DNA of 64,000 nucleotides from a virus. Below are positions 5,102 through 48,290 of this stretch, piece after piece (positions within the stretch are counted from its first letter, which is position 1; each line of letters opens with the position of its first letter). The notes beneath the pieces are model-generated. The model saw only the letters and a list, made by a program, of their open reading frames with translations, did no database searches and was not told where the DNA came from. A program made the translations under genes and the position numbers. The stretch is taken from the IMG/VR virus record IMGVR_UViG_3300017754_001832; one strand, given 5' to 3'.

Positions 5102-5102
5102 A

Positions 5103-21288: not shown

Positions 21289-21297
21289 GAGACTCCA

Positions 21298-26525: not shown

Positions 26526-26747
26526 TTAGCCCGGATCGCCCGTGAAGAACTGGCTGTTCGAGTCGTTGAGGCCGGTCTGGACCGCCAGCACGTCAGCTTC
26601 GAGAGCAGTGACGCGAGCGGCGACGGCGGCGAGCGCGGTGTCGATCAGGCCGAAGCCGGTGCGAACCGAGTTCTGGAGCGCGACATGCCCGTAGACGGAC
26701 AGCGGCAGGGAGTAGTTTGCGGTGACGGGCGGGGTGACGGCGGCCAT
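26526..26747 (-). CDS. hypothetical protein (73 aa) with one DSNS motif
   Basis: ORF ending GLNDSNSQFFTGDPG. Confidence 0.4.
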   Translation of the reverse strand: MAAVTPPVTANYSLPLSVYGHVALQNSVRTGFGLIDTALAAVAARVTALEADVLAVQTGLNDSNSQFFTGDPG

Positions 26748-26833
26748 GGGACTTCTCCTGAGTTTGGGCCGCTTTGTCGCGGCACCTTCGATGCCCCAAG
26801 AGATAGCGGATCAGAGGCCCGCAGTGCAACCCC

Positions 26834-27562
26834 TCAGTCGGGCAGCCGGAAACACTGCTCCAGCGGCTCATACGGAGCCTCTGGGATGCCCGGCTCGGTC
26901 GCCCGCACCACCGGAACCCCCAGCGTCGCGAGCTTCAGGACGACCTGCGTGAGGCTCGCGGCGAACTTCGGGTAGTTGGCGGCAAGGGTCTTGCGCTTGT
27001 GCTTGTCGTGCCACTGCGTCGCACCGTCCTTGCCCATCTGCATGTCGATCCCGAATAGGACTATTTTCCTAGCCCCGAGGTGATAGGCGAGGTTCACCGC
27101 CTGCGTCCCTGAGTCCCATCCGTGCAGGATCGAGGGCGTCGTCGAGAAGTTCCTCCGGTCACGCCAGTAGCGGAAGATGCGGGGGTGGTTCACGGTCGCC
27201 ACGTCCGAGGTCGCGGTCGAGATCGGGCCCTCGAACTTCGCGAGCACGTCCTTGCTGTTCCACTGCCACCACGAGGCGTCAGCGAAGTGCAGCCAATCGG
27301 CCCACGGCGCGATCTCGTAGCTCTGGTTCACGGCGATGCTTGCGCTCTGCTTCGCGACCGAGATGTCGAAGCCCTTCAGCGACGGCCCGCCGCCGATGAT
27401 CGACACGACCTGTCCCTCGAAGATGCGAGCGTGCGTGTGAGGCTGGATGCCTCGCGGCGCGTGCGGGTTGTGGCCTGGCTTGATCCGCCCGGCGAACGCC
27501 GCGTGCTTCTTCTCTGCCGCCGCGAGCGCCTTGCGCACTCGCCATGGAACGCCGTCCTTCAT
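26834..27562 (-). CDS. DUF115 / Maf-like (MptE-like fold) protein, paralog 2 (242 aa)
   Basis: VVSIIGGGPSLKGFD...IAVNQSY...GARKIVLFGIDMQ parallels the gene at 55645..56265. The GxGPSL motif is recalled as typical of motility-accessory-factor-type nonulosonic acid transferases. Confidence 0.5.
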   Translation of the reverse strand: MKDGVPWRVRKALAAAEKKHAAFAGRIKPGHNPHAPRGIQPHTHARIFEGQVVSIIGGGPSLKGFDISVAKQSASIAVNQSYEIAPWADWLHFADASWWQWNSKDVLAKFEGPISTATSDVATVNHPRIFRYWRDRRNFSTTPSILHGWDSGTQAVNLAYHLGARKIVLFGIDMQMGKDGATQWHDKHKRKTLAANYPKFAASLTQVVLKLATLGVPVVRATEPGIPEAPYEPLEQCFRLPD

Positions 27563-28884
27563 TACGTCACCACAAAGATCAATCCGGAGTTGGTGGAGTC
27601 GACCGCGCCGCCGCCCGATCCATCTGTCATCGCGAGAGCCATGAACAGGAAGGCCGTGCCGGGCGCCGTCGTGAAGTCGAGATCGAAGCCGTCGCTCGTG
27701 AACGCATCGAACTCCGCAGCGAGGATTCCGTCAACGGTCGGGTCGCCGAGCGTGAGCAGGCTGCCGTCGCTGTTGCTGTAGTTGATCGAGTTCGACGGGT
27801 CCACGCCGTTCTGGCTCGCCAGCGAATACATGCCCGGCTCGGCTGCGGTGTAGACCGACATGTAGCTCGTGGCGTTGTTCGCGTCCGGACCCGATGGCGT
27901 GTTGATCGTGGTCGAGCCGCCGCCGGCCAGCACGAGGATGTCAGGCGTGAAGCCGACACCCGTGTAGCTCTGCACGCCGGTCGATGTCTTGGTGAGGAAG
28001 TCGTCGAGGTGGAAGTCCACGCCGGGCGCCTTGATCGCGAGCGCCGACATGATGATGCTGGAGTGCGAGGCCGACGGCGTGACGCTGTAGCCGCTCGCGT
28101 CGTAGTCGCCGATGGTGACTTGCGCACCAAGGGTCGGAGACGTGCCTCCATTGAGGAAGACCGCGATCCGGTTGTCGAGCATGCAGAAGTTCGAGCGGTT
28201 GACCGTGAGCGTGCCAGAGCCATCGCGCCGGCCAATGCAACGCTGCGTGTTCGAGCCGTCGTTGAGTCCGATGCCGAACGTGAACAGGCCGAAGCCGGCG
28301 CTGCTCGACGAGAGGCCAGTTGCCGATCTGGCGCAGTGCGCCGCGAACACGATGTCAGGCTCGAAGCCCGGCGCGGTCTGGTCGAGAGCAGACGTGCCCG
28401 TGCCGAGGTCGATATTATTGAGGTGCGCCTGGCAGTCCGATCCGCCGAACACGATGAGCGTGAACTGCCTCGTGTTGCCGAGCGAGATCGGCGCGTTGGT
28501 GAAGTCGAGGCTCACCTCGTCCACGTCGACTCCGGTGAGGTAGACTTCCCAATTCTGACTGAAGGTGCCGCCCGTGTAGACGAGCCGGTTCTCGTATCGC
28601 GTGTTGGATGATTGGACGGAGTTTCCGTCCTGAATAATCATCTTGTGCTCGGCATGTTTCGAGGAGTCGATTGCGCTGTTGCTATCGTCCACGGCCACCG
28701 CGAAGCCGACCGACATCTCAGGCCCGGTCGAAGTGGAGAGCGCCGTGCCTGCCGTCCCGTTGGCCGGGTCGTGCGAGTTCGAGATGAGGACCACCGCAAC
28801 AGGAATCTCGCCGCCCATATCCACGGCGAAGTCCACGACGCCTTTTGCGGCCTGCGTGAAGGTGACGACTGCGACCCTTGCCAT
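27562..28884 (-). CDS. tail fibre / structural protein (440 aa) with one DSNS
   Basis: Ser/Thr/Gly/Asn-rich. Contains AVDDSNSA. Confidence 0.55.
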   Translation of the reverse strand: MARVAVVTFTQAAKGVVDFAVDMGGEIPVAVVLISNSHDPANGTAGTALSTSTGPEMSVGFAVAVDDSNSAIDSSKHAEHKMIIQDGNSVQSSNTRYENRLVYTGGTFSQNWEVYLTGVDVDEVSLDFTNAPISLGNTRQFTLIVFGGSDCQAHLNNIDLGTGTSALDQTAPGFEPDIVFAAHCARSATGLSSSSAGFGLFTFGIGLNDGSNTQRCIGRRDGSGTLTVNRSNFCMLDNRIAVFLNGGTSPTLGAQVTIGDYDASGYSVTPSASHSSIIMSALAIKAPGVDFHLDDFLTKTSTGVQSYTGVGFTPDILVLAGGGSTTINTPSGPDANNATSYMSVYTAAEPGMYSLASQNGVDPSNSINYSNSDGSLLTLGDPTVDGILAAEFDAFTSDGFDLDFTTAPGTAFLFMALAMTDGSGGGAVDSTNSGLIFVVT

Positions 28885-29807
28885 TAGCCGATCCTCGAAC
28901 CCATGAGCGTGATCGAGATGCCGAGCAGCGCACCGAGCGATGCCGGCGCGACGATGCCAAGCCGATCACCAGCGGCGAACGAAGTGGCGCTGGCGAACGT
29001 GAAGACGCCCGTCTGCGATCCGCCGTCGAACGTCAGCGTGCCGATGCTCGATCCGTTCTTCTGGATGTCGAAGGCGATGCTGGCCGAGTTGGAGTCATCC
29101 GTGGTCGGGGTCTCCGCCCACGACTGCGATCCCGTGAGGTTGATCGGCAGGATGAACGGGCGGCTCGCCACGTAGGTCACGCGGCGGTTGGCGTCGCCCG
29201 ATCCACCGACGAAGAAGAACGCGGGGTCGAGGACGCGGAGTCGACCGTAGAGGTCGTCCAGTGCGCCCTGCACCGTGGTCTCATCAGAGTTCGAGTCGCC
29301 GCCGTCGCCCGAGTTGTAGGTCACGCTCGAAGCGTCAGGCGTGCCGCCGACCGAACGGATGCGCGCATAGAGATCGTCGAGCGCGTCGCCGACGTTCGTC
29401 TCTGCCGAGTTGGAGTCTCCCGTGTCGCCCGCATCGTATCCGATGTCCGTGGCGACCAGCGTGCCCGAGCCCGCGATAGCGACCCACGCGGCGCCGTTGA
29501 AACGGTACTTCGTGGAGTCACCGATGTTCCAGACCTCCCACCCTTCGAGCGGCGTGATGTAGGACCACGCGGCGCCGAAGTAGTAGATGATCGAGTTCGC
29601 GGCTCCAGAGTTGGAGTCTTCCGCAGACAGGATGTGACGGTCGCCCTCGGTCGGGGCGTCCGGAAGCTCCGTGACGAAGCTGAAGACCACCGGCTGCGTG
29701 AGCACGGAGAGCTTGGTGAGGTCGGCTGTATAGCCGGGCCCCCAGCCATCCTCGCCGATGCTGTAGCCGACTGATAGTCCAAGACCGGGTGCGCTGGATG
29801 CGGGCAT
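28884..29807 (-). CDS. tail fibre-like protein (307 aa) with four DSNS motifs
   Basis: Repeated module GDxGDSNSxETxVxxALDDLYxRxR, plus AEDSNSG and TDDSNSA. Confidence 0.55.
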   Translation of the reverse strand: MPASSAPGLGLSVGYSIGEDGWGPGYTADLTKLSVLTQPVVFSFVTELPDAPTEGDRHILSAEDSNSGAANSIIYYFGAAWSYITPLEGWEVWNIGDSTKYRFNGAAWVAIAGSGTLVATDIGYDAGDTGDSNSAETNVGDALDDLYARIRSVGGTPDASSVTYNSGDGGDSNSDETTVQGALDDLYGRLRVLDPAFFFVGGSGDANRRVTYVASRPFILPINLTGSQSWAETPTTDDSNSASIAFDIQKNGSSIGTLTFDGGSQTGVFTFASATSFAAGDRLGIVAPASLGALLGISITLMGSRIG

Positions 29808-29809
29808 GA

Positions 29810-32119: not shown

Positions 32120-32309
32120 TGCGAACCCTCTTCGCTTCGACAACCTTGCGCGCGAGTGCGTCACCCGCAGCGATCAAGTCAGCCGCAGGTAATCCTTCGC
32201 GCAAAAACGCCTTGAAGTCCAATCCGTGAAGCTCGAACCATTTGCGGGCGCCCTTCACGCAGAAGCCGGCAGCCCGAATGTCCGCAATGTGTATGCGTTC
32301 TTCGGACAT
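32109..32309 (-). CDS. hypothetical protein (66 aa)
   Basis: ORF. Confidence 0.4.
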   Translation of the reverse strand: MSEERIHIADIRAAGFCVKGARKWFELHGLDFKAFLREGLPAADLIAAGDALARKVVEAKRVRNGR

Positions 32310-32557: not shown

Positions 32558-32560
32558 GCG

Positions 32561-33439
32561 TCACCCGTATGTGTTGACTTGGCCGCCGACCGGATTCGCA
32601 ACAGGAATCCAAGGGCAGCCGCCGAAGTTGTGGATGTTCGAGTGCAGGGCCGTGCAGTGATCCATCTGGTGATTGCACCCGAGGGAGATGCGAACGGCCT
32701 GCGTGGTGAGCAACGTCGTCGGGCCCGTCATGTAGACCGTGTAGCCGTTCGACGACTCCGCCACCTCAAGCACGGTCCTGATCTCGACGTTGCCGGCCGG
32801 CGTCGTCCATTCGATGACACCGCCCTTGAAGTTCTCGATCATGCTCTCCGGTGCGAAGCCATCGGGCAGCCCAAGCTCCACGGCGTTCTCGACTACGGAG
32901 TTCGGGATCACGGTGAAGGTGGCCGCCGCCTTGTTCGCGTTGCACGCCTTCGGCCCGGTCGTGTAGAGCGTGTGCGTGCAGGTGAGTTGGAAGTTCCGGC
33001 GGAGCGCCACGCGCCGCAGCGAGGTCGCCAGAGGTTCGCACGTGAGCACGCACTGATGCGACCCATCGCCTTCGTGCTTGCCGTTGAGCACCCTGCCAAT
33101 CCAGATCGAGCGCCACTCGGTGTCCGCCTCGGACAGGTGGCCGCGCATGATGGTCATGGAGATCGGATACGACGGAGGATATGCGCGATAGAGTTGCGCG
33201 ATAGCCGCCGTCGTGGGCACGCGGAGTTCGAGGCTCTTGCGGTCGAGCGTGCCGCTCGCGCTGATCTTCCCGGCGGAGACCGGAATCGGTTCGTAGGTCA
33301 CGCCATCCTTGACGATGGCCTGCTCCGCGTCCGTGTAGCCGTACACCGAGAGAGTCCCGACACCATACCTGAAGAGGATCAGGTTGACGGGCATCCCGTG
33401 CTCGCGGCTCTCGTCATACTCGTCATAGGCGTTCGTCAT
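32561..33439 (-). CDS. tail protein with a Cys-rich C-terminus (292 aa), resembling the DUF2163 / GTA 'BR0599' tail-hub family
   Basis: Start MTNAYDEYDE overlaps the upstream stop (ATGA). C-terminus LGCNHQMDHCTALHSNIHNFGGCPW. Family assignment from memory. Confidence 0.4.
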   Translation of the reverse strand: MTNAYDEYDESREHGMPVNLILFRYGVGTLSVYGYTDAEQAIVKDGVTYEPIPVSAGKISASGTLDRKSLELRVPTTAAIAQLYRAYPPSYPISMTIMRGHLSEADTEWRSIWIGRVLNGKHEGDGSHQCVLTCEPLATSLRRVALRRNFQLTCTHTLYTTGPKACNANKAAATFTVIPNSVVENAVELGLPDGFAPESMIENFKGGVIEWTTPAGNVEIRTVLEVAESSNGYTVYMTGPTTLLTTQAVRISLGCNHQMDHCTALHSNIHNFGGCPWIPVANPVGGQVNTYG

Positions 33440-35211
33440 CAGACGATCTCCGAGTTCGATTGGTCGTCGCCATCCTTGGCGACCCACGGTTGAGTTTGCA
33501 CAGTGAAGCTGACCTGGCAAACTTCATCCGTCAGGAACTCGAAGGTCGCCTGATCGGTGGCGAAGCGCCACAGCGTCACCCAGCAAATCTTGTCGATGTC
33601 TGCGAGGTCGATGTCCTGCCCAATCGTCTCGGTGAGTTGGATGGTGCTCTGCCCTTCTCCGGTCGAGTCGAGTTCGGCGAAGATGTCCGCGATCTGCTTG
33701 TAGACGATGGTGCCGTCGAGCAGGACAATCGCGATGCCGGCGCCATAGCGCACCGGGTCTTCGGCGTAGGTGCCCGCGAAGTCGACTCCGTCCACCACAA
33801 TGATGTCGTCGCCCGAGAGCATGTCCTGCGCGGCGTCGATGTCATACTCCCACGTCGGCATGTAGAACTCGCGGCACTGGCCGGCGCAACGGAAGAAGAA
33901 CTTCCGCAGCATCTCCGATTGCTCGAAGTCGCGGCCTGTGTAGTTGAGCACGAGACGGCGCTGCTGGAAGTCCTGATCCGCGATGCGGTCCACACGACCG
34001 ACATCGAAGTTGATGAAGATCGTCGGGTGGAAGTCCAGCGTCTCGGGCGGGTCGGCCCAATTCGGCTTCTCCAGCCACAGTTCCCGGTTGTCGAACGTGT
34101 AGAGCGGCGAGGATGTGGGCTCGATTGCCTGCGTGCCCGGCCGCACGAAGAAGTTCGGCGTGATCGTCTGCACCGTGTTGGTGAGCATGTTGCCGCCCGT
34201 CTCGTCGCCAATGAAGGCCGAGAGCGCGGGGAATATCTTGGTGCCGACGGGCCACTCGATCTCGTCGTCCGACTTGAAGAGGACCAGAGGCGCGCTGTTG
34301 GAGTCCTCGCTCTGCAAGTCGATGCGGCGCAGAGACCAATTCGTTCCATCGTAGAGGATGACGTAGGCGTTGGTCTCCGCCAGCCACCACGGGATGTCGC
34401 CGTCGATGTACGCCTCAAGACCGTTCGCCGGGATCACGGCGGAGGTCGTGACATAGCGCGTCATCTCAGGAACGAAGAACCGACCGCGCTGGTTGCCGGT
34501 CATCAGGCGTTGATACTCGCGACGCTCTGCGCGCTTGAGCGCGATCTCGAACTCCAGAGACATACGCGGCGTCTGGCGATACTGGATGCGCTGCTCGCGC
34601 CCGTTCGCCGAGGAGATGACCTCGGTGCGGAACTCGTATTGGATCGTGTAGGACGACGACCAATTAGGACGGTATTCCCAGACCTGATCGGTGAGCGTCG
34701 GCGTGCGGAAGCCCGTCACGTCGAGCGTCAGGATGTCGCCGAGGTTGAAGGCCAGTGTGAAGGAGTCGGACAGGACCGTCGATCCATCGCCAAGCGCCGT
34801 GAACGCGAGGGTTTGAATCTGCAAGGCACTGAGGTTCACAGGAACCGAGCCATCGTAGGAGACCTCGGTCCCGATAGCCGGCGTCACCGTGTTGAGCACG
34901 GCGTCATCGAAGTAGGCGTTCCACACCTGCACGTTGATCGTCGTGTCCGCAGCGAAGGTGCCGTAGGCCAGTTCGCTCGGGATCAGGTAGAAGCGGAAGT
35001 AGAAGTCATCGAACATCGTGAACTGGCGCGAGCCGGTGCGCGTCTCGCCGAGTTCCTGCACCATGAAGTAGTTCGTCCCTGGTCCGAGGACAGAGGACGC
35101 CGTGTCCTCGCCATGGATGCGGGCGCCGGATTGCACGCCGCCAGCGACGCCGGTTGCAGCATTGCCCGGCGTCGTGAAGGTCTCCATGAGAGGCTGGATC
35201 GAGCTAGCCAT
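33439..35211 (-). CDS. tail structural protein (590 aa) with an internal EDSNSA and the C-terminus DDQSNSEIV
   Basis: Long ORF in the tail-tip region. Confidence 0.55.
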   Translation of the reverse strand: MASSIQPLMETFTTPGNAATGVAGGVQSGARIHGEDTASSVLGPGTNYFMVQELGETRTGSRQFTMFDDFYFRFYLIPSELAYGTFAADTTINVQVWNAYFDDAVLNTVTPAIGTEVSYDGSVPVNLSALQIQTLAFTALGDGSTVLSDSFTLAFNLGDILTLDVTGFRTPTLTDQVWEYRPNWSSSYTIQYEFRTEVISSANGREQRIQYRQTPRMSLEFEIALKRAERREYQRLMTGNQRGRFFVPEMTRYVTTSAVIPANGLEAYIDGDIPWWLAETNAYVILYDGTNWSLRRIDLQSEDSNSAPLVLFKSDDEIEWPVGTKIFPALSAFIGDETGGNMLTNTVQTITPNFFVRPGTQAIEPTSSPLYTFDNRELWLEKPNWADPPETLDFHPTIFINFDVGRVDRIADQDFQQRRLVLNYTGRDFEQSEMLRKFFFRCAGQCREFYMPTWEYDIDAAQDMLSGDDIIVVDGVDFAGTYAEDPVRYGAGIAIVLLDGTIVYKQIADIFAELDSTGEGQSTIQLTETIGQDIDLADIDKICWVTLWRFATDQATFEFLTDEVCQVSFTVQTQPWVAKDGDDQSNSEIV

Positions 35212-36281
35212 TACGCACCCGCAGAGTTCGAGTCTTCCTCACCAACAGCGTAGGCGTAGCCCACCCACAGCGAGGTCTCGAACTCTGGCGGGTTCGAGCC
35301 GCTGCCGGTCGACTCGGGCATCGTGACTTCGGAGCGGCGCGCGTGCGAGGGGAAGACCCGCCACAGCATACCGCCGACGATGATCTCTGCACCCGGCTGG
35401 AGGTCTTGCATGTGGACGTGGCGAACGCCGGCCGGGCGACCGATCGGTCGGAACTCCACATCGCCGACGATGGGGTCCGCGTTGTAGAGGTTGATCGGCG
35501 AGAGCGTGTTGAGGCTCGCGAACGGCGAGCGACCGCGTGCCAGATAACCATCGTTGATCGCGTCGTTGTAGCCGCCGATCACACCGTTCACCGGGAAGCT
35601 CAGCAGGGGCGTGCTGCTCGTCGCAGTCGAGCCCACGAAGAAGCGCCACGGGTAGGCGTTGTCCGCGTGATCCACATGCACGCCGCCACTCTCCGCCGCA
35701 GCCCTGCGGCTCTGACGGCCCGAGAAGAGGTACTTCATGTCGAGGTCGTAGTAGACTCGAGTCGAAGAGGAGTTGCCGGGTCCATCGGTGGCCGAGATGC
35801 ACTCGCCGCCCTGATAGTCGCCGACCTTCTCCATGTTGCCGATATACATGTGCCGGTAGAGGTTCGAGCCATACTCCACGATGATCGCGATGTAGGGCTC
35901 GGGGGTGAGCGCCCCGATCAGGTGGACTTGCGTCGGCAGAACGACGGCCGGCGATCCTGCACCGACGACCGGCGACGCGAAGATCGCGGAGCCCGCCTGC
36001 AATGCGGTCACAGCGGAGTTCGATTCGGAGTCGTACTGATACGCCGCACAGGTGAGGGTGTGCGTGCTGCCGGCCACCGAGGCGGTGACTTGGAACGGGA
36101 TCGCATCGCTCGCCTCGAAGGCCGAGTTCGATCCGGAGTTCGAGTCGCCGCCCTGCGGCCTGCGGAGGATCGGTTGCGTGGGAGTGGTGAGGTCCGTCTC
36201 CCATCCGATCAATGCTGCGAACGTGCCGACCAGAGCCGGCACGTCCGTAATCGCGCTGATGGAGTTTACTTGGTATGTCAC
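35211..36281 (-). CDS. tail structural protein, paralog B (356 aa) with three DSNS/SNS motifs, one at the C-terminus (EEDSNSAGA*)
   Basis: Paralogous to 36278..37342 (similar length, shared MxYQ...N start, YIGN/FIGG core). Confidence 0.55.
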   Translation of the reverse strand: MTYQVNSISAITDVPALVGTFAALIGWETDLTTPTQPILRRPQGGDSNSGSNSAFEASDAIPFQVTASVAGSTHTLTCAAYQYDSESNSAVTALQAGSAIFASPVVGAGSPAVVLPTQVHLIGALTPEPYIAIIVEYGSNLYRHMYIGNMEKVGDYQGGECISATDGPGNSSSTRVYYDLDMKYLFSGRQSRRAAAESGGVHVDHADNAYPWRFFVGSTATSSTPLLSFPVNGVIGGYNDAINDGYLARGRSPFASLNTLSPINLYNADPIVGDVEFRPIGRPAGVRHVHMQDLQPGAEIIVGGMLWRVFPSHARRSEVTMPESTGSGSNPPEFETSLWVGYAYAVGEEDSNSAGA

Positions 36282-37342
36282 GAGTTGGACTCCTCGTTCG
36301 CGATGAATGCACTGTTACTATCTTCTGGCCCGCGTGTCACGGCGAACCAATTTCCAAGTGCGGTGCGGAAGGTGTTCTGGAAGACGATGTGGACGGAGTT
36401 CTCCGCCTGGATCACATTCTCGATTGTCTGGCCTCGGCCGGGCACGCGGTAGACGCCATCCAGCACGCCGAAGGTCTGGTCGCTCGGGCTGGCCTGCGTG
36501 AGCGTGAAAGGGGTGAGCGTGAAGCTATCGCCATACGCCACCTGCTCACGCTTGCTCACGTCCTCGTAGCCGTACTCGCCGCTGCCCGAGTTCGATTGCA
36601 CAGAGTTGAGGACCGCGCCGAGCCCGAGGCCAACGCCGAAGAACGCCGGGCCGATGCAGGCCGGCGCCGACGTGTCATTCTTCGAGACCTTCAGCCAGTT
36701 GCCAGAGGGATCGAGCATCCACGCGCTCGGCATGTAGCCGCTCGACCCGGTCGACGAGTTGCTGTTGGAGAAGCAGAAGGCGGAGTGATCGTCGGAGACC
36801 GAGGAGTGCGAGGTCGACTCCGAGGAGCCGCCCGATCCACACGAGCCGCCGATGAACATCGGATAGGTGTAGACCGTGGGGTCCGCGTAGGGGAGGAAGA
36901 AGCCGGCATACATCGTCTCGTAGACCGTGCCGACCTGGACAACGATGATGAAGCGACGACCGTTCGCGATGAACCAATAGCGCATCGTGTTCGGGCGCGT
37001 GAACATCTTGACCGGATACGGGGTCATGTTGACGTGCAGGTCGTAGCTGGCAGCCGACTCCACGATGCCCGTGCAGCCGCGCATGTACCACGTGCTCACA
37101 TCGCCAGCGACGTTCGAGTCATCGCGCTTCATCGCCACATAGACAGACGCATCTGCCGCGAGGCCGGGGCCACGCAGCACGACGCCGAGAGCGGCGTCTG
37201 CGGAGTCGCTGTTGGAGTCGGAACCCCATGCGATCTCCCAATTCTGTCCGAGGGCCACGAGTTCCGCGTCCGTCGTGATGAACGAGATGAACTTGTCCCA
37301 AAGATCGGCGTGATTGGTCGCCGTGCCTGTCTGGTAAGCCAT
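36278..37342 (-). CDS. tail structural protein, paralog A (354 aa), possibly a distal tail protein, with two DSNS motifs plus the C-terminus EESNS*
   Basis: Immediately downstream of the tape-measure gene. Confidence 0.55.
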   Translation of the reverse strand: MAYQTGTATNHADLWDKFISFITTDAELVALGQNWEIAWGSDSNSDSADAALGVVLRGPGLAADASVYVAMKRDDSNVAGDVSTWYMRGCTGIVESAASYDLHVNMTPYPVKMFTRPNTMRYWFIANGRRFIIVVQVGTVYETMYAGFFLPYADPTVYTYPMFIGGSCGSGGSSESTSHSSVSDDHSAFCFSNSNSSTGSSGYMPSAWMLDPSGNWLKVSKNDTSAPACIGPAFFGVGLGLGAVLNSVQSNSGSGEYGYEDVSKREQVAYGDSFTLTPFTLTQASPSDQTFGVLDGVYRVPGRGQTIENVIQAENSVHIVFQNTFRTALGNWFAVTRGPEDSNSAFIANEESNS

Positions 37343-43664: not shown

Positions 43665-43748
43665 ATTTACCCTCTTCTGAAACGAGCCGGGGCCCGTAGC
43701 ATCTTGTGCCACGGGCCCCGGAAGATTGCAACCCAACTTCTACCTGTC

Positions 43749-44588
43749 TTAGGCGTAGGCGGGTCGGCCAAGGGCGTAGATCGCCGCGTAGCTGGTGGGC
43801 TTCAGGATTTCGACCTGGAACGGGATGACGTTCCACTCGTCCGACTTCAGCGCGTAGTCTCCGTTCGGGGAGACCTTGATCCACGGGAAGAAGTAGTCGA
43901 TGTCGTCGCCGACCGGGTTGAAGGCGATGAACTGCATCGCGCCTTCGACCGGCTCCGAACCCGAGAGGATGCGGTTGTAGGTCGAGGGACGGATCGTGTA
44001 CGTGACCTGAAGGTCCGTGCCGTCCGCGATGCCACCGCCAACGATGACGTACAGGCGGCCCGTCTCCGGATCGACCGTGTAGTCCGTGCCGTAGACGAAC
44101 TCCGTGTTGCCCGCCGAGTTCGAGTCGTTCTCGACAACCGTGAAGGCGCCGCCCGAGTTCGAGTCGGTGTCGCCACCGGCCACGAGGCCCTTCGCGCCGG
44201 CAGGGCGCGTGGTCGAGATGCCAAGCTGGTAGTAGAGGCCCTGCTCGACATCGTTGACTTCTTCGGCGGTGATCGTCGCACCAGCTTCCGTCACGACTTC
44301 TTCCTCGCCGAAGAAGAAGATGGCGACGTTCTTGATGTCGATGTTGTCGGTCGTGAAGGTGCCCGAGCGGTTGACCTGGAGAGCAATGCTCTCGTCCTTC
44401 TCGCGGATGCCGTGATCCGAGTTGAAGTGGTCGAGAACCTCTTGCTCGATGGTGAGCGAGAACTCCGGTGTGTTCCCGATATACCGGAAACCCTTTGGGG
44501 TTTGGGTGCCCGTGACAAAGCGGGCGAAACTGATTTCGCCACGACCCAGCGTGTAGTTGTTAGTGACAATGCCTTCGGTGGCGGCCAT
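43749..44588 (-). CDS. major tail protein, gpV-like (about 279 aa) with two DSNS motifs
   Basis: Start MAATEGIV after the RBS GGAGAT. Located between gpU-like and gpG-like genes. Confidence 0.6.
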   Translation of the reverse strand: MAATEGIVTNNYTLGRGEISFARFVTGTQTPKGFRYIGNTPEFSLTIEQEVLDHFNSDHGIREKDESIALQVNRSGTFTTDNIDIKNVAIFFFGEEEVVTEAGATITAEEVNDVEQGLYYQLGISTTRPAGAKGLVAGGDTDSNSGGAFTVVENDSNSAGNTEFVYGTDYTVDPETGRLYVIVGGGIADGTDLQVTYTIRPSTYNRILSGSEPVEGAMQFIAFNPVGDDIDYFFPWIKVSPNGDYALKSDEWNVIPFQVEILKPTSYAAIYALGRPAYA

Positions 44589-44665
44589 GGTGGTATCTCC
44601 TGCTGGCGGTGGTCCGTGTTCCTTACGTGTTACAGCCTCGCTGGCGTTGAAAGTCAACGCCTCAC

Positions 44666-45220
44666 TTAGCTGTACGGATTCTCCAAGTCCTCGGCGATCT
44701 TCAGCCGTATCGCGAGCCAGAAGTACGCCTTGCCCGAGACTTCATCCGGAGGGCGGCAGACCGGGCTCCCGATCTGCATTGAGATGACCCCCGGCTTACC
44801 ATTGGCCCCGCGAACACTCAACAGGGCAGGCCCAACGCCGGCCGGCGAGCGGCCCTGATCCAGCCGCTTCTTCTCTTTCGCGAGGCAGCGGCACACGTCG
44901 GCCACCAGAAGGTAGGCCGGATCGGTGGGGTTCGCCTTGTCGTCTTTGCAGAACCCCTGGATCGAGATGTCCCAATCGCCGGTCGAGTAGGGGGAGGATG
45001 CCGCAGAGTCGACCTGATCGTTGGCGATAGGCGTCTCCAGAATGGCGATCATCGGCAGGGGGTCGTTCTCCCCGTAGATGTTGCGGCCACGGAAGACGCG
45101 GCCCGCCAGATCGTGGTGGTAGCCGGTCGGCCCCGAGTTGGAATCCTCGATAGCGATGGTCTCCAGAAGCTCAGTGAGCTTGCGCATGACGCGGAGGCGG
45201 AAGGGGTAGGTCTCGGTCAT
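44666..45220 (-). CDS. tail terminator, gpU-like (184 aa) with one DSNS
   Basis: Size and position. Confidence 0.45.
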   Translation of the reverse strand: MTETYPFRLRVMRKLTELLETIAIEDSNSGPTGYHHDLAGRVFRGRNIYGENDPLPMIAILETPIANDQVDSAASSPYSTGDWDISIQGFCKDDKANPTDPAYLLVADVCRCLAKEKKRLDQGRSPAGVGPALLSVRGANGKPGVISMQIGSPVCRPPDEVSGKAYFWLAIRLKIAEDLENPYS

Positions 45221-45819
45221 CAGACGTTCTCCAGCCCGAGTTGTCTCAGGTATTCGGTTTCGAGCGCGTTGGCGATCTCGTCTTCCATGTCGGGCCAGAT
45301 GCCCTTGCGCCCGCTCGCGCCGATCAGGGCTTGTGCGACCGAAGGACCATAGAGGAGCCAGAGGCTCTTAGCCAGCCGGCGCGGTCTGTAGGCCCCCGAG
45401 GGCTTGCCCGGTGAGCGCACGGCCAGCATCGTCGACTCTCCGCCCGCCTTGCCTACGCCAAGCAGGAACGCGCCCGGCAGGGCTCGCTGGCCTCCGGGTT
45501 GGACCTCGACTTTGATCTTGCCCTTCTTCGCGTTCGTGTTGGTCACGAAGCGTGCGAGGCCCGTAGGCCGCGACGCGGCGGTGAGCTTGCCTTCGAGCTT
45601 CCCGGCGCCCGCTGAGAACTGCTCGATCTTGCCGTCCTGCCCCGTGAGGTAGCGGGCAGGAAAGGCCACCTGCTGCCGCAGCATGCGGCCCGAGCGGGCC
45701 CGTGCGTCACGCAGGGTGCGGTTGATCGCACGCTGTGCGGCGATCTGCGACTTCTTCGGGATGTCTTCGAGATCGCGGAGAGACTTGATGCCGAGGATCG
45801 TCACGGAGAGGTTGGACAT
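45220..45819 (-). CDS. tail completion protein, gpZ-like (199 aa)
   Basis: Position. Confidence 0.4.
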   Translation of the reverse strand: MSNLSVTILGIKSLRDLEDIPKKSQIAAQRAINRTLRDARARSGRMLRQQVAFPARYLTGQDGKIEQFSAGAGKLEGKLTAASRPTGLARFVTNTNAKKGKIKVEVQPGGQRALPGAFLLGVGKAGGESTMLAVRSPGKPSGAYRPRRLAKSLWLLYGPSVAQALIGASGRKGIWPDMEDEIANALETEYLRQLGLENV

Positions 45820-46260
45820 TTACTCCTCCGGAGGAAGAGGCAGCCCGGCCGAGTCTGCGGAATCCTGGCGCGTGACGCGAGCCGTGATCGTTTCCTGATC
45901 GTGCGGCTCGACCACGTCGATGTAGTACGACTCGCCACTCGTGACGGAGATCACATCGCCGCGCGCCGGGCTGATGCCCGCGTCTTCGAGTTCGGTGCGC
46001 CAGAAGATAACCCTCGGGACCGAGTCGAACCGCTCTGCGCTGTTGAGTGATGTGCCGGCTTGATCGCCGAGCTTCATGCCCTTCTCGTGGATGCGAACTT
46101 CCACGACGGGCAGGCCGTGCATGTTGCCAGAGGTCGAGCCCGAGAACGACGTGCTGTTGGAGTCGTTCTCGGGTGATCCGCCGACGAGATAGACGGCGCG
46201 GACCTTCAAAGTCTGGTGGACCGTTTCGCGGGCCGCCCGTTTGATGTCGCGCCATCCCAT
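45820..46260 (-). CDS. head-tail joining protein, FII-like (146 aa) with one DSNS
   Basis: Position. Confidence 0.4.
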   Translation of the reverse strand: MGWRDIKRAARETVHQTLKVRAVYLVGGSPENDSNSTSFSGSTSGNMHGLPVVEVRIHEKGMKLGDQAGTSLNSAERFDSVPRVIFWRTELEDAGISPARGDVISVTSGESYYIDVVEPHDQETITARVTRQDSADSAGLPLPPEE

Positions 46261-46261
46261 C

Positions 46262-46657
46262 TCAGTCTACCTTCTTCGCTGCCCCATTGAGGCCGGCGCC
46301 GAGGTCGGTCAAGTCGCGACGACGGCGGGTGGTTGTGGTCTTCTGTTCTGCTGCGGCCTTGGCGTCTGCGCGAACCTTGTCCGCTGCTTCCTTCATGGCC
46401 TTCTTCACCGCGACCTTTTCCGCGAGGCCGGGGGTCTCGGCGTCGAGACGCATACGGCGGGTCTTCGGATTGACGCGGGGGAGTTTAGCGAGAAATTCCT
46501 TCGCCTCTTTCGAGTCTGCCATTGCGGCGAAACCCTGCGCGAGGAGCGACTCGGCTTCCTTGTCCACGATGTCGGCGATCTCTCCGCCGTAGAACTTCGT
46601 GGGTCCGTCTTTGCCCACCTCGGTCGAGGTGGTGCCAACGAATAGTGCGATCTGCAT
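46262..46657 (-). CDS. hypothetical head-associated protein (131 aa), in the FI-like position
   Basis: ORF preceded by the conserved CAGCACTAGAGGGAACTACATG element. Confidence 0.4.
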   Translation of the reverse strand: MQIALFVGTTSTEVGKDGPTKFYGGEIADIVDKEAESLLAQGFAAMADSKEAKEFLAKLPRVNPKTRRMRLDAETPGLAEKVAVKKAMKEAADKVRADAKAAAEQKTTTTRRRRDLTDLGAGLNGAAKKVD

Positions 46658-46730
46658 GTAGTTCCCTCTAGTGCTGATGGACTAAGGGGGCGGCCCGAGA
46701 GCCACCCCCTGTCCGGTTGACCAACTCGGG

Positions 46731-47801
46731 TTAGGAGTTGGAGTCTTCTTCCACGACCCGAGCATGGAAGCTGCGGTTCGGGAACGGCGAGATGGCGAGC
46801 GGCGCCGACTGCGTCATGATGTTCATCGCGGACGGGTCTTGCTCGACCCACATCTTCGTGAACACCGGCTGAGCGATCAGGTTCTCGATCTCCAGGATCG
46901 CGCCGTAGGCCGACACGCCACCGTAATCGGCAGCCGTGATGACCAGGTCACGCGGGTTCATGATGTCCACGTGGTTGCCGCTGTTGTCCTCGTAGAAGTC
47001 CTCGTAGAGGACCAGCGTGAGGCCCGGCAGCGAGCCGACCACGGTCCACGGAGCATCCGGCGTGCGCGCTTGGATCAGCGAACGCGCGATGGAGTTGCCC
47101 TCGCCGCCACGGACGTTGGTGTCCATGAGTTCGAGCAGCTTCGTGTTCGAGCGCATGACGCGCCAGACTTCACGACCCATCGTGACAACCGAGCCGCGTC
47201 CGCCGAAGTCAGCGTTCGCCATCGCGTCGGTGTATTCCTGGAGTTGCGCCACGATGTCCGTGGTGGAGTCCCAGAGGCCGGTCGTCTTGATGTCCGTGAG
47301 CGCGGTGTCGCGGCCATAGTCAACTTCGACGGTCGGGCCGTCCTGATACTCGACCAGCACCTTGCCGTAGGTCACGGCTTGGAAAGCCATGATCTCCTGG
47401 CGCCGCTCGATGATCTTGCGGTGATGCTCAAGGATCGCGGCGATCTCCGCGTCGCGGTTCTGAGCCGGCGAGCGAGGCGAGTCGTCGTAGAGGTTGCCGG
47501 GGCGGCGCGTGAACTGCTCGCCGGGGATCACCGGGTCTTTCAGCTTGATATAGGCCGGGCTGAAGGACGCGGCGGTCGAGCCACGGCGCCGGTAGGACGG
47601 GCGGCCGGGGTTCTGCGGCAGAGAGAACGTCGCGACCTCGCGGTTGCCGACGATCTTTTCCCAGATGATCGCTTGCTTGTCCGACTGGAAGATGTTGGAC
47701 GAGAAGCCGCCGAGATTCCGCCAGTAGTTGCTGACGGTTTCGAGGCGCTGGTCGCGGAATACGCCCAGCAGCGCACGGGGGGAGAGAACTTCGAGAGACA
47801 T
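46731..47801 (-). CDS. major capsid protein, lambda gpE-like (356 aa) with a C-terminal ...VVEEDSNS* extension
   Basis: RGSTAASFSPAYIKLKDPV and IMTQSAPLAISPFP align with lambda E segments (RGGSTSEFTPGYVKPKHEV, TMIQSAPLMLLADP). Confidence 0.75.
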   Translation of the reverse strand: MSLEVLSPRALLGVFRDQRLETVSNYWRNLGGFSSNIFQSDKQAIIWEKIVGNREVATFSLPQNPGRPSYRRRGSTAASFSPAYIKLKDPVIPGEQFTRRPGNLYDDSPRSPAQNRDAEIAAILEHHRKIIERRQEIMAFQAVTYGKVLVEYQDGPTVEVDYGRDTALTDIKTTGLWDSTTDIVAQLQEYTDAMANADFGGRGSVVTMGREVWRVMRSNTKLLELMDTNVRGGEGNSIARSLIQARTPDAPWTVVGSLPGLTLVLYEDFYEDNSGNHVDIMNPRDLVITAADYGGVSAYGAILEIENLIAQPVFTKMWVEQDPSAMNIMTQSAPLAISPFPNRSFHARVVEEDSNS

Positions 47802-47840
47802 TGGGGCGGCCCTTTCTTATCGGCTGCTGGACGGCGGGGG

Positions 47841-48290
47841 TTAGGACGGGGTGCCGGGGGTTGCGGTTGCGATCTGATCGACGCCGAGGGGCGTGCGGTC
47901 GAGAGCGCGGCGGAGGAGGGCGAGAGACCACGAAGCATCTTTCGCGATGACATCGTAGTTGAAGACGCCGTCCGTGTAGTAGGACACGTCCGTCACGTCG
48001 GCGCCGACTTCCGAGTTGGAGTCGCTGCCGCCCGAGTTGGAGTCATCGACCGCCACGACGGCGGAGGTGATGCCAACCGGCTCTTGCGAGCCGTCGGTGG
48101 CCGTCTGGACGGACGGAACGATCAGGCCCGTGCCGGTGACGCGGCCAACGAGCGTGTTGACGGGGATGTCAACAGTCGTCTTGCCACGGCCAACCATGGT
48201 GGGGGCCTTGAACCACAGACCGTTCGTCTGCGTGAAGGTGTCCGAGCTTTGAACCGGGACGCCGGGCGGGTTTGAAGTGAGGGCGGTCAT
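47841..48290 (-). CDS. head decoration protein, lambda gpD-like (149 aa) carrying a DDSNSGGSDSNSE doublet
   Basis: TFTQTNGLWFKAPTMVGRGKTT resembles the gpD N-terminus. Located between the protease and the major capsid gene. Confidence 0.6.
   Translation of the reverse strand: MTALTSNPPGVPVQSSDTFTQTNGLWFKAPTMVGRGKTTVDIPVNTLVGRVTGTGLIVPSVQTATDGSQEPVGITSAVVAVDDSNSGGSDSNSEVGADVTDVSYYTDGVFNYDVIAKDASWSLALLRRALDRTPLGVDQIATATPGTPS

What the first reader, a model, noticed from the sequence alone, without database searches (positions are those of the whole stretch)
26526..48290. Asp-Ser-Asn-Ser tetrapeptide recurs about 20 times in 12 virion proteins and nowhere else, including the extreme C-termini
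DSNS, usually in an acidic context (EDSNSA, GDSNSD, DDSNSG), occurs as follows:
- major capsid protein, as the C-terminal tag ...VVEEDSNS*;
- gpD-like decoration protein, as DDSNSGGSDSNSE;
- major tail protein, twice;
- gpU-like and FII-like proteins;
- both tape-measure-distal paralogs, three and two times, with the C-termini EEDSNSAGA* and EESNS*;
- the 590-aa tail protein, as EDSNSA plus the C-terminus DDQSNSEIV*;
- the 307-aa fibre, four times and embedded in a repeated GDxGDSNSxETxVxxALDDLYxRxR module;
- the 440-aa fibre, the 73-aa ORF at 26526, and the 112-aa ORF at 14820 beside the plus-strand fibre.
It is absent from replication, packaging-ATPase, metabolic and early proteins. Chance expectation for a specific tetrapeptide in about 7,000 residues is well under 0.1.
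The codons vary (GAC/GAT; TCC/TCG/AGC; TCG/TCT/TCC/AGC/AGT), so selection acts on the peptide, not on a DNA site. The C-terminal and loop-like placement in surface-exposed proteins (decoration protein, capsid C-terminus, fibres) fits a post-translational modification sequon, a ligand/metal-binding tag or a display tag.
Combined with the phage-encoded Maf-like, glycosyltransferase and methyltransferase genes (see the next finding), the leading hypothesis is virion-protein glycosylation at a short sequon. That would be a new type of phage system.
Basis: partly seen in the sequence, partly recalled or inferred. Interest (0 to 1): 0.92.

Follow-up and report, generated by a model that had tools for sequence, protein, structure and literature searches.

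The report
Short surface tag on phage virion proteins
An uncultured phage lineage has written the four-residue tag Asp-Ser-Asn-Ser onto the loops and tail ends of nearly all its outward-facing particle proteins, and only this lineage carries a set of sugar-transferring enzymes, so the tag is most likely a new, very short signal for coating the virus particle with sugars.

Summary
DSNS occurs 19 times in 12 virion proteins. It is the commonest tetrapeptide in the roughly 18,000-residue proteome. About 0.15 copies are expected, and 5,000 shuffles gave at most 4.

All 19 copies lie in outward-facing virion proteins (4,975 aa). None lie in internal or assembly proteins (3,364 aa, including the 1,661-aa tape measure) or in non-structural proteins (10,784 aa).

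Selection acts on the peptide. The motif is frame-specific, and both serines use TCN and AGY codons.

The tag defines a whole uncultured clade. Of 27 capsid homologues at 51% identity or more, 26 end in ...[E/D]DSNS plus 0-3 residues, and one ends in DSNT. All 36 homologues at 37% identity or less stop before the tag.

Only the DSNS clade carries two Maf/sialyltransferase-like genes, two GT8-like glycosyltransferases and one or two methyltransferases. Syntenic outgroups lack both the genes and the motif.

Best reading (about 0.55): DSNS is a strict acceptor sequon for phage-encoded cytoplasmic glycosylation of the virion surface. No chemistry is shown, and the enzyme-motif link rests on a single clade.

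Virion glycosylation is already known in mycobacteriophages, so this is a new variant of a known kind, but a striking one.

The parts
46731..47801 (-). Major capsid protein (lambda gpE-like, 356 aa). It ends in the C-terminal tag ...ARVVEEDSNS*, with DSNS at 46734-46745.
   Evidence: PHROG phrog_29, E 2.3e-57. The tag is an add-on beyond the '...ATVV(A)' end seen in all homologues at 37% identity or less. It is present in 26 of 27 homologues at 51% identity or more. The AF2 model puts the last strand at residues 344-348; residues 349-356 are coil and pLDDT is below 50 at 354-356.
47841..48290 (-). gpD-like head decoration protein (149 aa) with two sites, DDSNSGGSDSNSE (48033-48044 and 48012-48023).
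   Evidence: PHROG phrog_49. The orthologue in L105 hits PF02924 HDPD. Both sites are kept in relatives, while the spacer and flanks vary.
43749..44657 (-). Major tail (tube) protein with two DSNS sites (44154-44165 and 44115-44126).
   Evidence: PHROG phrog_807, E 1.4e-62. Both sites lie in the indel-prone loop between conserved blocks. Outgroup L008 has an insertion of about 130 aa at this position.
44666..45220 (-). Tail terminator (gpU-like) with one DSNS (45134-45145, codons GAT TCC AAC TCG).
   Evidence: PHROG phrog_5078; site. The site is conserved in L001 and L105.
45820..46260 (-). FII-like head-tail protein with one DSNS (46153-46164).
   Evidence: PHROG phrog_4858. The site is conserved in relatives.
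36278..37342 (-). Distal tail protein paralogue A (354 aa). DSNS at residues 42 and 341 (37208-37219 and 36311-36322, the latter coded GAT AGT AAC AGT). The C-terminus is ...NEESNS*.
   Evidence: PHROG phrog_687. Sites near residues ~50 and ~347 recur in the orthologues of L108, L109 and L110.
35211..36281 (-). Distal tail protein paralogue B (356 aa). DSNS at residues 46 and 350 (36135-36146 and 35223-35234). The C-terminus is ...EEDSNSAGA*.
   Evidence: PHROG phrog_687.
33439..35211 (-). 590-aa tail protein with one DSNS (34294-34305) and the variant ...DDQSNSEIV* at the C-terminus.
   Evidence: PHROG phrog_1082, E 1e-90. Orthologues in L014 and L017 carry C-terminal DSNS tags.
28884..29807 (-). 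307-aa tail fibre (DUF2793-type) with four DSNS (29607-29618, 29406-29417, 29286-29297, 29085-29096). Two of them sit in a repeated module of about 40 aa.
   Evidence: PHROG phrog_7049. Alignment with four orthologues shows shared sites as well as lineage-specific gains carried by small insertions.
27562..28884 (-). 440-aa fibre-like protein with one DSNS (28675-28686, codons GAT AGC AAC AGC) and three other xSNS.
   Evidence: No family hit. Its position between the fibre gene and the Maf-like gene is conserved in relatives.
26526..26747 (-). 73-aa coiled-coil-like ORF with DSNS near its C-terminus (26553-26564).
   Evidence: Small orthologous ORFs in L015 and L017 carry ...NDSNSQF... near their C-termini.
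14820..15158 (+). 112-aa ORF with one DSNS (14919-14930), immediately upstream of a 486-aa fibre-like ORF (15158-16618).
   Evidence: In L014 and L019, similarly placed 115-aa ORFs carry 'GEAF..DSNS' and precede large fibre-like genes just after the Maf-like gene. The homology was not formally aligned.
26834..27562 (-). Maf/sialyltransferase-like protein 1 (242 aa), at the end of the tail-fibre module. It is a candidate transferase.
55645..56265 (-). Maf/sialyltransferase-like protein 2 (206 aa), inside the enzyme cassette.
   Evidence: phrog_4603, E 3.5e-13. hhalign against the family alignment A1 gives probability 99.5%, E 1.9e-22. It is conserved at 65-93% identity in L101, L102, L103 and L105.
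57364..58077 (-). GT8-like glycosyltransferase 1 (237 aa).
   Evidence: PF01501, E 0.0037, below the cut-off. It has more than 7,700 homologues, several named 'glycosyltransferase' or 'LPS biosynthesis glycosyltransferase', some with a precomputed PF01501 hit and two fused to Methyltransf_23. A DCD motif is visible. A family HMM finds it only in DSNS-positive loci.
56262..57505 (-). Two adjacent class I SAM methyltransferase genes (56262-56948 and 56828-57505; the likely true limits are 56262-56831 and 56828-57367).
   Evidence: Methyltransf_23, E 1.2e-14 and 3.1e-6. phrog_24759. One or two copies are conserved in relatives.
54885..55658 (-). GT-A/GT8-like glycosyltransferase 2 (257 aa).
   Evidence: 597 homologues. 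Invariant D98-x-D100. The family profile matches only GT8 structures (Skp1 alpha-galactosyltransferase, glycogenin) at E 0.0075-0.02. Two homologues hit PF01501 and one is fused to Methyltransf_23. It is 65-92% identical in DSNS-positive relatives and absent from outgroups.

Best explanation
DSNS is a strict four-residue acceptor tag, optimally [E/D/G]-D-S-N-S-[A/G/T]. This phage clade has placed it on surface loops and C-terminal ends of the virion proteins that face outward: capsid, decoration protein, neck, tube, distal tail and fibres.

During late infection, phage-encoded cytoplasmic enzymes would recognise the tag on unassembled or assembling proteins. They would then build a short, probably methylated glycan on it. 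O-linkage to one of the serines is the most likely chemistry. The candidate enzymes are two minimal Maf/sialyltransferase-like proteins, two GT8-like GT-A glycosyltransferases and one or two SAM methyltransferases. The result would be a virion coated with more than a thousand glycans.

**Shown here**
- The motif is real, selected at the peptide level and extremely specific.
- It is restricted to exposed virion proteins.
- It sits on add-on tails and variable loops.
- It is conserved across a clade that is about 50% divergent.
- That clade alone carries the enzyme genes.

**Inferred**
- That the tag is modified at all.
- That the modification is a glycan.
- Which residue is the acceptor.
- Which enzyme reads the tag.
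- Which sugar donor is used. A nonulosonic acid donor is only suggested by the Maf-like fold.
- The biological pay-off, such as shielding, stability or adsorption.
For: 1. **Enrichment and partition.** There are 19 DSNS against 0.15-0.17 expected, and at most 4 in 5,000 shuffles. All 19 lie in 4,975 aa of exposed virion proteins. None lie in 3,364 aa of internal or assembly proteins, including the 1,661-aa tape measure, or in 10,784 aa of other proteins. Relatives show the same pattern.

2. **Peptide-level selection.** The DNA 9-mer GACTCSAAC is in sense frame 0 in 21 of 24 occurrences. Over 110 clade sites, every synonymous codon is used. AGY codons appear at Ser1 in 13 of 110 sites and at Ser2 in 39 of 110. 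The orthologous capsid tag differs synonymously between relatives.

3. **Strictness.** In 79 motif-bearing ORFs, DxNS is almost only S (141; G 2, N 1, M 1) and DSxS almost only N (141; I 1, E 1); DTNS does not occur. DSNx is S 141, against G 3 and T 2.

4. **Add-on or loop placement.** The capsid tag extends beyond the ancestral C-terminus and is predicted to be disordered. The tube sites lie in an indel-prone loop where one outgroup has a 130-aa insertion. Some fibre sites are carried by small insertions. Eighteen of 110 sites lie within 6 residues of a stop codon.

5. **Clade conservation.** Of 27 capsid cluster representatives at 51% identity or more, 26 carry the tag and one has DSNT. None of 36 at 37% identity or less carry it. 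About 298 kb of outgroup loci contain zero DSNS (none in any frame in L003-L013; none in ORFs of 60 aa or more in L111-L120) and show no other enriched tetrapeptide.

7. **Phylogenetic profile.** The cassette and Maf-like 1 are present in every DSNS-positive locus that covers those regions. They are absent from syntenic DSNS-negative outgroups by both tblastn and HMM search.

8. **Precedent.** Mycobacteriophages glycosylate capsid and tail-tube proteins with their own glycosyltransferases (PMC12363180, PMC11256854).
Against: - No chemical evidence exists. All members are metagenomic, and no isolate was found in the phage collection.
- The enzyme-motif association is a single evolutionary contrast within one clade, so it could reflect shared ancestry alone.
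- Maf-like homologues at 40% identity or less occur in at least 358 IMG/VR stretches, and the 77 examined have no DSNS enrichment and no alternative enriched tetrapeptide.
- Known Maf enzymes have no sequon and need large acceptor-binding domains or partner proteins (PMC11339370; bioRxiv 10.1101/2023.12.03.569772). The phage proteins lack these.
- O-glycosyltransferases usually accept both Ser and Thr, yet Thr is essentially excluded here.
- The Pfam hits to PF01973 and PF01501 are below their gathering thresholds.
- No sugar-nucleotide or nonulosonic-acid biosynthesis gene was seen in the window.
- The methyltransferases and GT8-like proteins could instead serve DNA or host-envelope modification.
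Confidence: 0.55

Rival explanations
1. DSNS is a functional surface peptide in its own right and is not modified. Possible roles are a multivalent low-affinity adhesion motif for a host surface component, a metal- or water-binding turn, or a solubility or anti-aggregation tag displayed in high copy number on the particle.
For: The motif is confined to exposed proteins, loops and termini. Copy number per virion is high. Side-chain requirements are extremely strict at all four positions, including exclusion of Thr. That pattern is more typical of a binding epitope than of an O-glycosylation site. Sites turn over by gain and loss in fibres.
Against: This reading does not explain why four glycosyltransferase-like genes and methyltransferases appear exactly in the DSNS clade and nowhere in syntenic outgroups. 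A four-residue unmodified peptide is a weak ligand. The motif also occurs on neck and terminator proteins, where adhesion makes little sense.
Confidence: 0.2
2. DSNS is the recognition site for a different post-translational step: a non-glycan modification such as methylation, phosphorylation or nucleotidylation, or covalent or non-covalent capture by another virion protein.
Against: The best structural match is a protein glycosyltransferase. Two more cassette genes are GT8-like with DxD motifs. GT-methyltransferase fusions point to sugar methylation. There is no kinase, Fic or ligase signature in the scanned genes.
Confidence: 0.12
3. DSNS is a proteolytic processing or autocleavage site, either for the S49 prohead protease or through Asn-mediated cleavage.
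For: A head maturation protease is encoded next to the capsid gene. Asn-Ser bonds are chemically labile (general knowledge).
Against: In many capsid proteins the motif is the very last four residues, so there is nothing to cleave off. The prohead protease cannot reach tail and fibre proteins. Cleavage at internal sites would fragment the tube, the fibre and the decoration protein. The scaffold/protease and portal have no sites.
Confidence: 0.03
4. The signal is at the nucleic-acid level, for example a late-mRNA or DNA site such as a methylation, packaging or restriction-related motif containing GANTC. A variant of this rival is that the motif is a compositional or repeat artefact.
For: Seventeen of 20 sites contain GA(C/T)TC, which fits GANTC. 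The core 9-mer GACTCSAAC occurs 24 times.
Against: Twenty-one of 24 copies of the 9-mer are in sense frame 0. Three window sites and 13 of 110 clade sites encode Ser1 with AGY, which destroys the DNA motif while keeping the peptide. GANTC itself is abundant (648 sites). No flanking DNA or peptide similarity exists apart from one fibre repeat. Shuffles never exceed 4. The outgroups have none.
Confidence: 0.02

Closest known systems
Mycobacteriophage virion glycosylation (Che8, Corndog, Myrna; Freeman et al. 2023, as cited in PMC12363180 and PMC11256854)
   Same: Phage-encoded glycosyltransferases modify the major capsid and tail-tube subunits and so produce a glycan coat on the particle. Here too the capsid and tube carry the tag and the phage encodes its own glycosyltransferase-like genes. 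The capsid tag is a C-terminal extension. That mycobacteriophage acceptor sites are C-terminal is my recollection, not something checked here.
   Different: - The host is probably an alphaproteobacterium rather than an actinobacterium; this rests only on weak indications and is an inference.
- At least 12 different virion proteins carry the tag, not two.
- The tag is a strict, portable four-residue motif.
- The enzymes are Maf/sialyltransferase-like and GT8-like; homology to the Che8 or Corndog enzymes was not tested.
- Modification is not demonstrated here.
Maf (motility accessory factor) flagellin nonulosonic-acid O-glycosyltransferases (MAF_flag10/DUF115, e.g. PDB 5MU5)
   Different: - Maf proteins are about 600 aa long and have N- and C-terminal domains, TPR domains or a GlfM partner for acceptor binding.
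- Maf proteins have no known sequon (PMC11339370; 10.1101/2023.12.03.569772).
- The phage proteins are bare cores of 206-242 aa, sit in phage tail and packaging-adjacent modules, and co-occur with a strict tetrapeptide.
- The Pfam score is below the gathering threshold.
Sequon-directed bacterial protein glycosylation (PglB D/E-X-N-X-S/T; the Bacteroidetes D-(S/T)-(A/I/L/V/M/T) O-glycosylation motif)
   Same: A short linear motif with an acidic residue upstream of the acceptor marks many unrelated surface proteins for glycosylation.
   Different: - Those systems act in the periplasm by en-bloc transfer from a lipid carrier, whereas virions assemble in the cytoplasm.
- DSNS does not fit either sequon. 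There is no S/T two residues after the Asn, and many proteins end right after DSNS.
- Asn is not an allowed third residue of the Bacteroidetes motif; that motif is quoted from memory.
GT8 cytoplasmic protein-directed glycosyltransferases (glycogenin; Skp1 alpha-galactosyltransferase AgtA)
   Same: The only solved structures matched by the profile of the 257-aa cassette protein are these GT8 enzymes. They build or extend glycans on proteins in the cytoplasm. The DxD motif is conserved.
   Different: The matches are weak (E about 0.01). The acceptor and donor are unknown. These phage proteins are much shorter than AgtA and have no demonstrated activity.

Membership tests
Maf / MAF_flag10 (DUF115, PF01973) flagellin glycosyltransferases | Catalytic core with the MptE/DUF115 sialyltransferase-like fold | tested here: met
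Maf / MAF_flag10 (DUF115, PF01973) flagellin glycosyltransferases | Score above the Pfam gathering threshold for PF01973 | tested here: not met
   Maf-like 1 scores 25.6 bits against a cut-off of 34.6. The paralogue scores 16 bits. Most homologues do carry a precomputed PF01973 hit, flagged 'faint' where contexts were read.
Maf / MAF_flag10 (DUF115, PF01973) flagellin glycosyltransferases | Accessory N- and C-terminal domains, TPR domains or a GlfM partner that bind the flagellin acceptor; protein of about 600 aa | tested here: not met
   The proteins are 242 and 206 aa, whereas the Maf chain 5mu5_A has 632 residues. The requirement is described in 10.1101/2023.12.03.569772.
Maf / MAF_flag10 (DUF115, PF01973) flagellin glycosyltransferases | Genomic linkage to flagellin and nonulosonic-acid biosynthesis genes | tested here: not met
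   The neighbours are tail fibres for copy 1, and GT8-like, methyltransferase and terminase genes for copy 2. No NulO pathway family was detected in the proteins scanned.
Maf / MAF_flag10 (DUF115, PF01973) flagellin glycosyltransferases | Transfers a CMP-activated nonulosonic acid to Ser/Thr | not testable with these tools
   This needs biochemistry or mass spectrometry.
GT8 glycosyltransferases (PF01501) | Significant match to the family model | tested here: inconclusive
   57364-58077 scores E 0.0037, 17.3 bits against a cut-off of 24.3, but the match spans profile positions 77-249 of 253. Homologues are named glycosyltransferase and some carry PF01501. The profile of 54885-55658 hits only GT8 structures, at E 0.0075-0.02.
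GT8 glycosyltransferases (PF01501) | DxD metal/nucleotide-sugar binding motif of GT-A enzymes | tested here: met
   D98 and D100 are invariant in the 40-sequence alignment of the 257-aa protein. The 237-aa protein has 'VDCDFLF', which aligns to that motif.
GT8 glycosyltransferases (PF01501) | GT-A fold | not tested
Phage virion glycosylation (mycobacteriophage type) | Phage-encoded glycosyltransferase genes together with capsid and tail-tube subunits that carry the acceptor | tested here: met
   There are four glycosyltransferase-like genes. The capsid and tube carry DSNS.
Phage virion glycosylation (mycobacteriophage type) | Glycans demonstrated on virion proteins | not testable with these tools
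   All members are metagenomic contigs. There is no isolate in the phage collection.
PglB-type N-glycosylation sequon D/E-X-N-X-S/T | Ser/Thr two residues after the Asn | tested here: not met
   The residue after DSNS is A in 29, G in 18, T in 13 and P in 7 of 110 sites. Six of the 27 capsid proteins end directly in DSNS, so that position does not exist.

The most novel reading that the evidence does not exclude
A bare Maf-like (or GT8-like) transferase of about 25 kDa recognises a portable four-residue sequon, D-S-N-S, in any exposed loop or C-terminus. It starts cytoplasmic O-glycosylation there, possibly with a nonulosonic acid that is then extended and methylated. This would be the first sequon-directed cytoplasmic protein glycosylation system in a phage. 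It would be used to coat the whole outer surface of the virion, and it could be reused as a minimal glycosylation tag.
Probability: 0.3. Interest if true: 0.92.

Novelty: new variant of a known kind. Interest (0 to 1): 0.8.

Why it matters
- If DSNS is a glycosylation sequon, it would extend virion glycosylation from mycobacteriophages to phages that probably infect Gram-negative, likely alphaproteobacterial, hosts.
- It would show that a phage can mark essentially its whole exposed surface, not just the capsid and tube, with one tiny tag.
- It would give the first short linear acceptor motif associated with Maf-like or GT8-like cytoplasmic protein glycosyltransferases. For Maf enzymes the literature states that no sequon is known.
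- A four-residue tag that works at C-termini and in loops would be an attractive glycoengineering and phage-display handle.
- A glycan coat has consequences for phage stability, adsorption, immune or defence recognition, and environmental persistence.
- The hypothesis is directly testable with a 149-aa decoration protein and six small genes.

Tried and rejected
- **DNA-level motif or CcrM GANTC site.** Rejected on frame specificity and on AGY/TCN codon switching.
- **Composition or repeats.** Rejected by shuffles and by the lack of flanking similarity, apart from one fibre module.
- **PglB-like N-sequon.** Rejected.
- **Protease site.** Rejected because the motif is often the terminal four residues and occurs in tail proteins.
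- **An alternative sequon in phages with distant Maf-like genes.** No enriched tetrapeptide was found in 77 loci or in the outgroups.
- **An independent DSNS-tagged lineage.** A DNA-pattern scan of IMG/VR for tandem DSNS gave 107 stretches. Only members of the same high-GC clade showed multi-protein tagging. The rest were single low-complexity repeat ORFs in low-GC contigs.
- **Isolates or hosts.**
  - A megablast search of the phage collection found nothing.
  - Protein searches found only relatives below 40% identity (Brevundimonas and Caulobacter jumbo phages for the Maf-like protein; Achromobacter, Rhizobium and Ruegeria phages for the capsid).
  - The one GTDB scan found no close prophage.
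- **Literature.** There is no paper on DSNS in phages or on nonulosonic acids on phage capsids. The Freeman 2023 paper itself is not held.
- **Pfam, NCBIfam and PDB sequence searches on cassette proteins.** These gave nothing above threshold. Only the profile built gave weak GT8 matches.

Full report
**Context.** The window is most of a siphophage genome of about 68.5 kb with about 63% GC.
- It has a lambda-like head module: small and large terminase, portal, S49 protease, gpD-like decoration protein and gpE-like capsid protein.
- It has a GTA/phiJL001-like distal tail.
- Its replication genes include a family A DNA polymerase, an SNF2 helicase, an Enc34-type ssDNA-binding protein and DUF2800.
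- No isolate is close to it. The best isolate matches are below 40% identity.

**1.
- A six-frame scan finds 20 DSNS. Nineteen are in real genes and one is a spurious antisense hit at 50206.
- With a codon-usage-based gene set of 85 genes, DSNS is the single most frequent tetrapeptide in the proteome. It occurs 19 times against 0.15 expected from composition. AAAA is second with 14.
- Shuffling residues within each protein gives a mean of 0.17 and a maximum of 4 in 5,000 trials. No tetrapeptide with three or more distinct residues exceeded 10 in 200 shuffled proteomes.
- The SNS tripeptide occurs about 30 times, exclusively in the same 12 proteins.

**2. The motif is selected as a peptide.**
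- The commonest DNA form, GACTCSAAC, occurs 24 times, and 21 of these are in sense frame 0.
- Three window sites use AGC or AGT for the first serine.
- Across 110 distinct sites collected from clade members, all synonymous codons are used. AGY appears at Ser1 in 13 sites and at Ser2 in 39 sites.
- The orthologous capsid tag is coded differently in different relatives.
- GANTC sites are abundant overall, so a CcrM-type explanation fails.

**3. The motif is very strict.**
- In 79 motif-bearing ORFs (27,185 aa), the second position is almost only Ser and the third almost only Asn. DTNS never occurs.
- The fourth position is Ser 141 times, against Gly 3 and Thr 2.
- The first position is Asp 141 times, against Asn 16, Gly 6, Ser 5 and Glu 4.
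- The preceding residue is Glu or Asp in 46% of sites. The following residue is mostly Ala, Gly or Thr. Nothing further is conserved.

**4. The motif is confined to what faces outward.**

Classification of the window's proteins:

| Class | Proteins | Residues | DSNS |
|---|---|---|---|
| Exposed virion | 16 proteins: capsid, decoration, FII-like, terminator, tube, distal tail, fibres | 4,975 | 19 |
| Internal or assembly | portal, protease/scaffold, 1,661-aa tape measure, chaperones, Neck1, adaptor | 3,364 | 0 |
| All other | remaining genes | 10,784 | 0 |

- Fisher's exact test gives p = 7.6e-12. Given the density in exposed proteins, the chance of zero copies in the internal set is 2.6e-6.
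- The assignment of proteins to 'exposed' or 'internal' is my inference from the known architecture of lambda-like virions.
- Relatives repeat the pattern. Tape measure, portal, protease, large terminase, helicase, polymerase and the enzyme cassette have none; the one exception seen is a single DSNS in the small-terminase-like ORF of L103.

**5. The motif sits on add-ons and variable loops.**
- All capsid homologues at 37% identity or less end at ...ATVV(A). The DSNS clade adds [E/D/Q][E/D]DSNS plus 0-3 variable residues.
- In the AF2 model the last strand is residues 344-348, and the tag is low-confidence coil.
- The two tube sites flank a short strand in the most indel-prone segment of the protein. 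One outgroup has a 130-aa insertion exactly there.
- In the fibre, some sites are shared by all orthologues and others arrive with small lineage-specific insertions.
- Eighteen of 110 sites lie within six residues of a stop codon.

**6. The motif is the hallmark of one uncultured clade.**
- Of 27 capsid cluster representatives at 51-90% identity, 26 carry the tag. The exception has DSNT, and that phage uses DSNS in its other proteins.
- None of 36 representatives at 27-37% identity carry the tag.
- Loci fetched through the Maf-like gene at 43-86% identity have 4-18 DSNS per 12-22 kb, all on the structural strand.
- About 298 kb of outgroup loci around homologous capsid or tail genes contain no DSNS (none in any frame in L003-L013; none in ORFs of 60 aa or more in L111-L120) and show no other enriched tetrapeptide.
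- A homology-independent DNA-pattern scan of IMG/VR found multi-protein tagging only in this clade.

**7. The candidate machinery.**
- A paralogue (55645-56265) belongs to the same superfamily (hhalign probability 99.5%).
- That paralogue lies in a cassette between the SNF2 helicase and the terminase genes. The cassette also holds the following genes.
  - A GT8-like glycosyltransferase (57364-58077). Its Pfam hit is sub-threshold, but it has more than 7,700 homologues, many named glycosyltransferase.
  - Two Methyltransf_23 genes.
  - A second GT-A/GT8-like protein (54885-55658). It has an invariant DxD motif, and its profile matches only glycogenin and the Skp1 galactosyltransferase, weakly.
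- Homologues of both GT8-like proteins occur fused to Methyltransf_23 domains. This suggests that the glycosyltransferases and methyltransferases act in one pathway.

**8. Co-occurrence.**
- tblastn and family HMMs find the cassette in every DSNS-positive locus that spans the helicase-terminase interval: the window, L001/L101, L102, L103 and L105.
- They find it in none of the syntenic DSNS-negative outgroups. In L003, L010 and L013 the SNF2 and large-terminase matches start 2.1-2.6 kb apart, which leaves no room for it. In L005 the SNF2 match runs off the locus end and the gap is about 4 kb, but no cassette homologue is found there either.
- Maf-like 1 follows the fibres in all DSNS-positive tail loci. 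It is absent within 10 kb downstream of the homologous tail gene in four outgroups.
- This is consistent and striking, but it is a single phylogenetic contrast.
- Conversely, Maf-like genes at 40% identity or less are common in other phages without any DSNS. There are at least 358 IMG/VR stretches, and P1 PmgO-like genes sit in Pseudomonas phage head modules.

**9. Interpretation.**
- The most economical reading is that DSNS is an acceptor sequon for phage-encoded cytoplasmic glycosylation of the virion surface.
- The motif does not fit the PglB N-sequon.
- Maf enzymes are reported to have no sequon and to need extra acceptor-binding domains or partners. A bare Maf-like core paired with a strict tetrapeptide would therefore be new.
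- Virion glycosylation itself is not new, as it is documented in mycobacteriophages.
- Points against the reading:
  - there is no chemistry;
  - Thr is excluded, which is unusual for O-glycosylation;
  - the family hits are below threshold;
  - no sugar-nucleotide pathway genes were found;
  - the association rests on one clade.
- I put glycosylation at about 0.55, an unmodified functional surface peptide at about 0.2, another modification or capture mechanism at about 0.12, and proteolysis or nucleic-acid explanations at 0.05 or less together.

**10. Verdict.**
- The novelty is a new variant of a known kind, with a real chance of something more fundamental: a minimal, portable sequon for a Maf-like or GT8-like transferase.
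- The hypothesis can be tested with a handful of synthetic genes.

Noticed in passing
window 49641-51359 (-), stop at 50541-50543: The portal gene is interrupted by a single in-frame TAG (...HIMEQQRID*TRGISD...), which splits it into ORFs 50541-51359 and 49641-50519 in the same frame. The orthologue in L102 has CAG (Gln) at that position. Relatives encode intact portals of 563-567 aa. This could be a nonsense mutation, an assembly variant, or reliance on amber suppression.
   Followed up: partly
window 17903-25000 (+): A cluster of nucleotide-metabolism genes. It contains MazG (17903-18436), a dATP/dGTP diphosphohydrolase N-domain PF18909 (18426-18914), a dCMP deaminase (20818-21288), an MT-A70 methyltransferase (23623-24291) and an HD-domain protein (24410-25000). 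Together these suggest non-canonical or modified DNA. In relatives the PF18909 protein is one ORF of 395-413 aa, whereas here MazG and PF18909 are separate overlapping ORFs.
   Followed up: no
window 1953-7657 (+): A block of genes with clearly lower third-position GC (about 0.69, against about 0.85 in the structural genes) and lower overall GC (0.60). The ORFs of 415, 291 and 530 aa have no known function (PHROG unknowns; a weak RecC_C hit). The block looks like a separately acquired island.
   Followed up: no
window 13565-14753 (+): Two long overlapping ORFs in different frames (13565-14728 and 13818-14753). The first has a partial C-5 cytosine DNA methylase match (PF00145, residues 86-133 only). 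This may be a frameshifted or degraded methylase gene. An HNH endonuclease lies nearby at 11471-12088.
   Followed up: no
loci L021-L100 (IMG/VR) and phage records H1-H30: The small MptE/DUF115 (Maf-like) family is widespread in phages. It matches at least 358 IMG/VR stretches, Brevundimonas and Caulobacter jumbo phages, Xanthomonas XacN1 and Pseudomonas D3/PMG1-like phages. In the Pseudomonas phages it sits beside head-tail connector genes and is labelled PmgO 'morphogenetic function'. Its role in any of these phages appears to be uncharacterised.
   Followed up: partly
L008 about 4485-6000 (tail tube orthologue): One outgroup tail tube protein carries an insertion of about 130 aa rich in Gly, Ala and Ser. 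It sits exactly in the loop that carries the two DSNS tags in this clade, so the loop is a general site for surface decoration of the tube.
   Followed up: no
window 28884-29807 (-), residues about 118-205: The 307-aa fibre contains a tandem duplication of a module of about 40 aa (..Y[DN][AS]GD.GDSNS.ET.V..ALDDLY.R.R..). The module is conserved in orthologues from L015 and L017 and present once in L019. Each copy brings one DSNS.
   Followed up: partly
window 22039-22587 (+); relatives L015, L017, L019: An SPFH/Band-7 protein is conserved across the clade. In relatives it lies next to a GapR-like DNA-binding protein (PF10073). GapR is typical of alphaproteobacteria, which weakly hints at the host group. 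No tRNA genes were found in the window.
   Followed up: no
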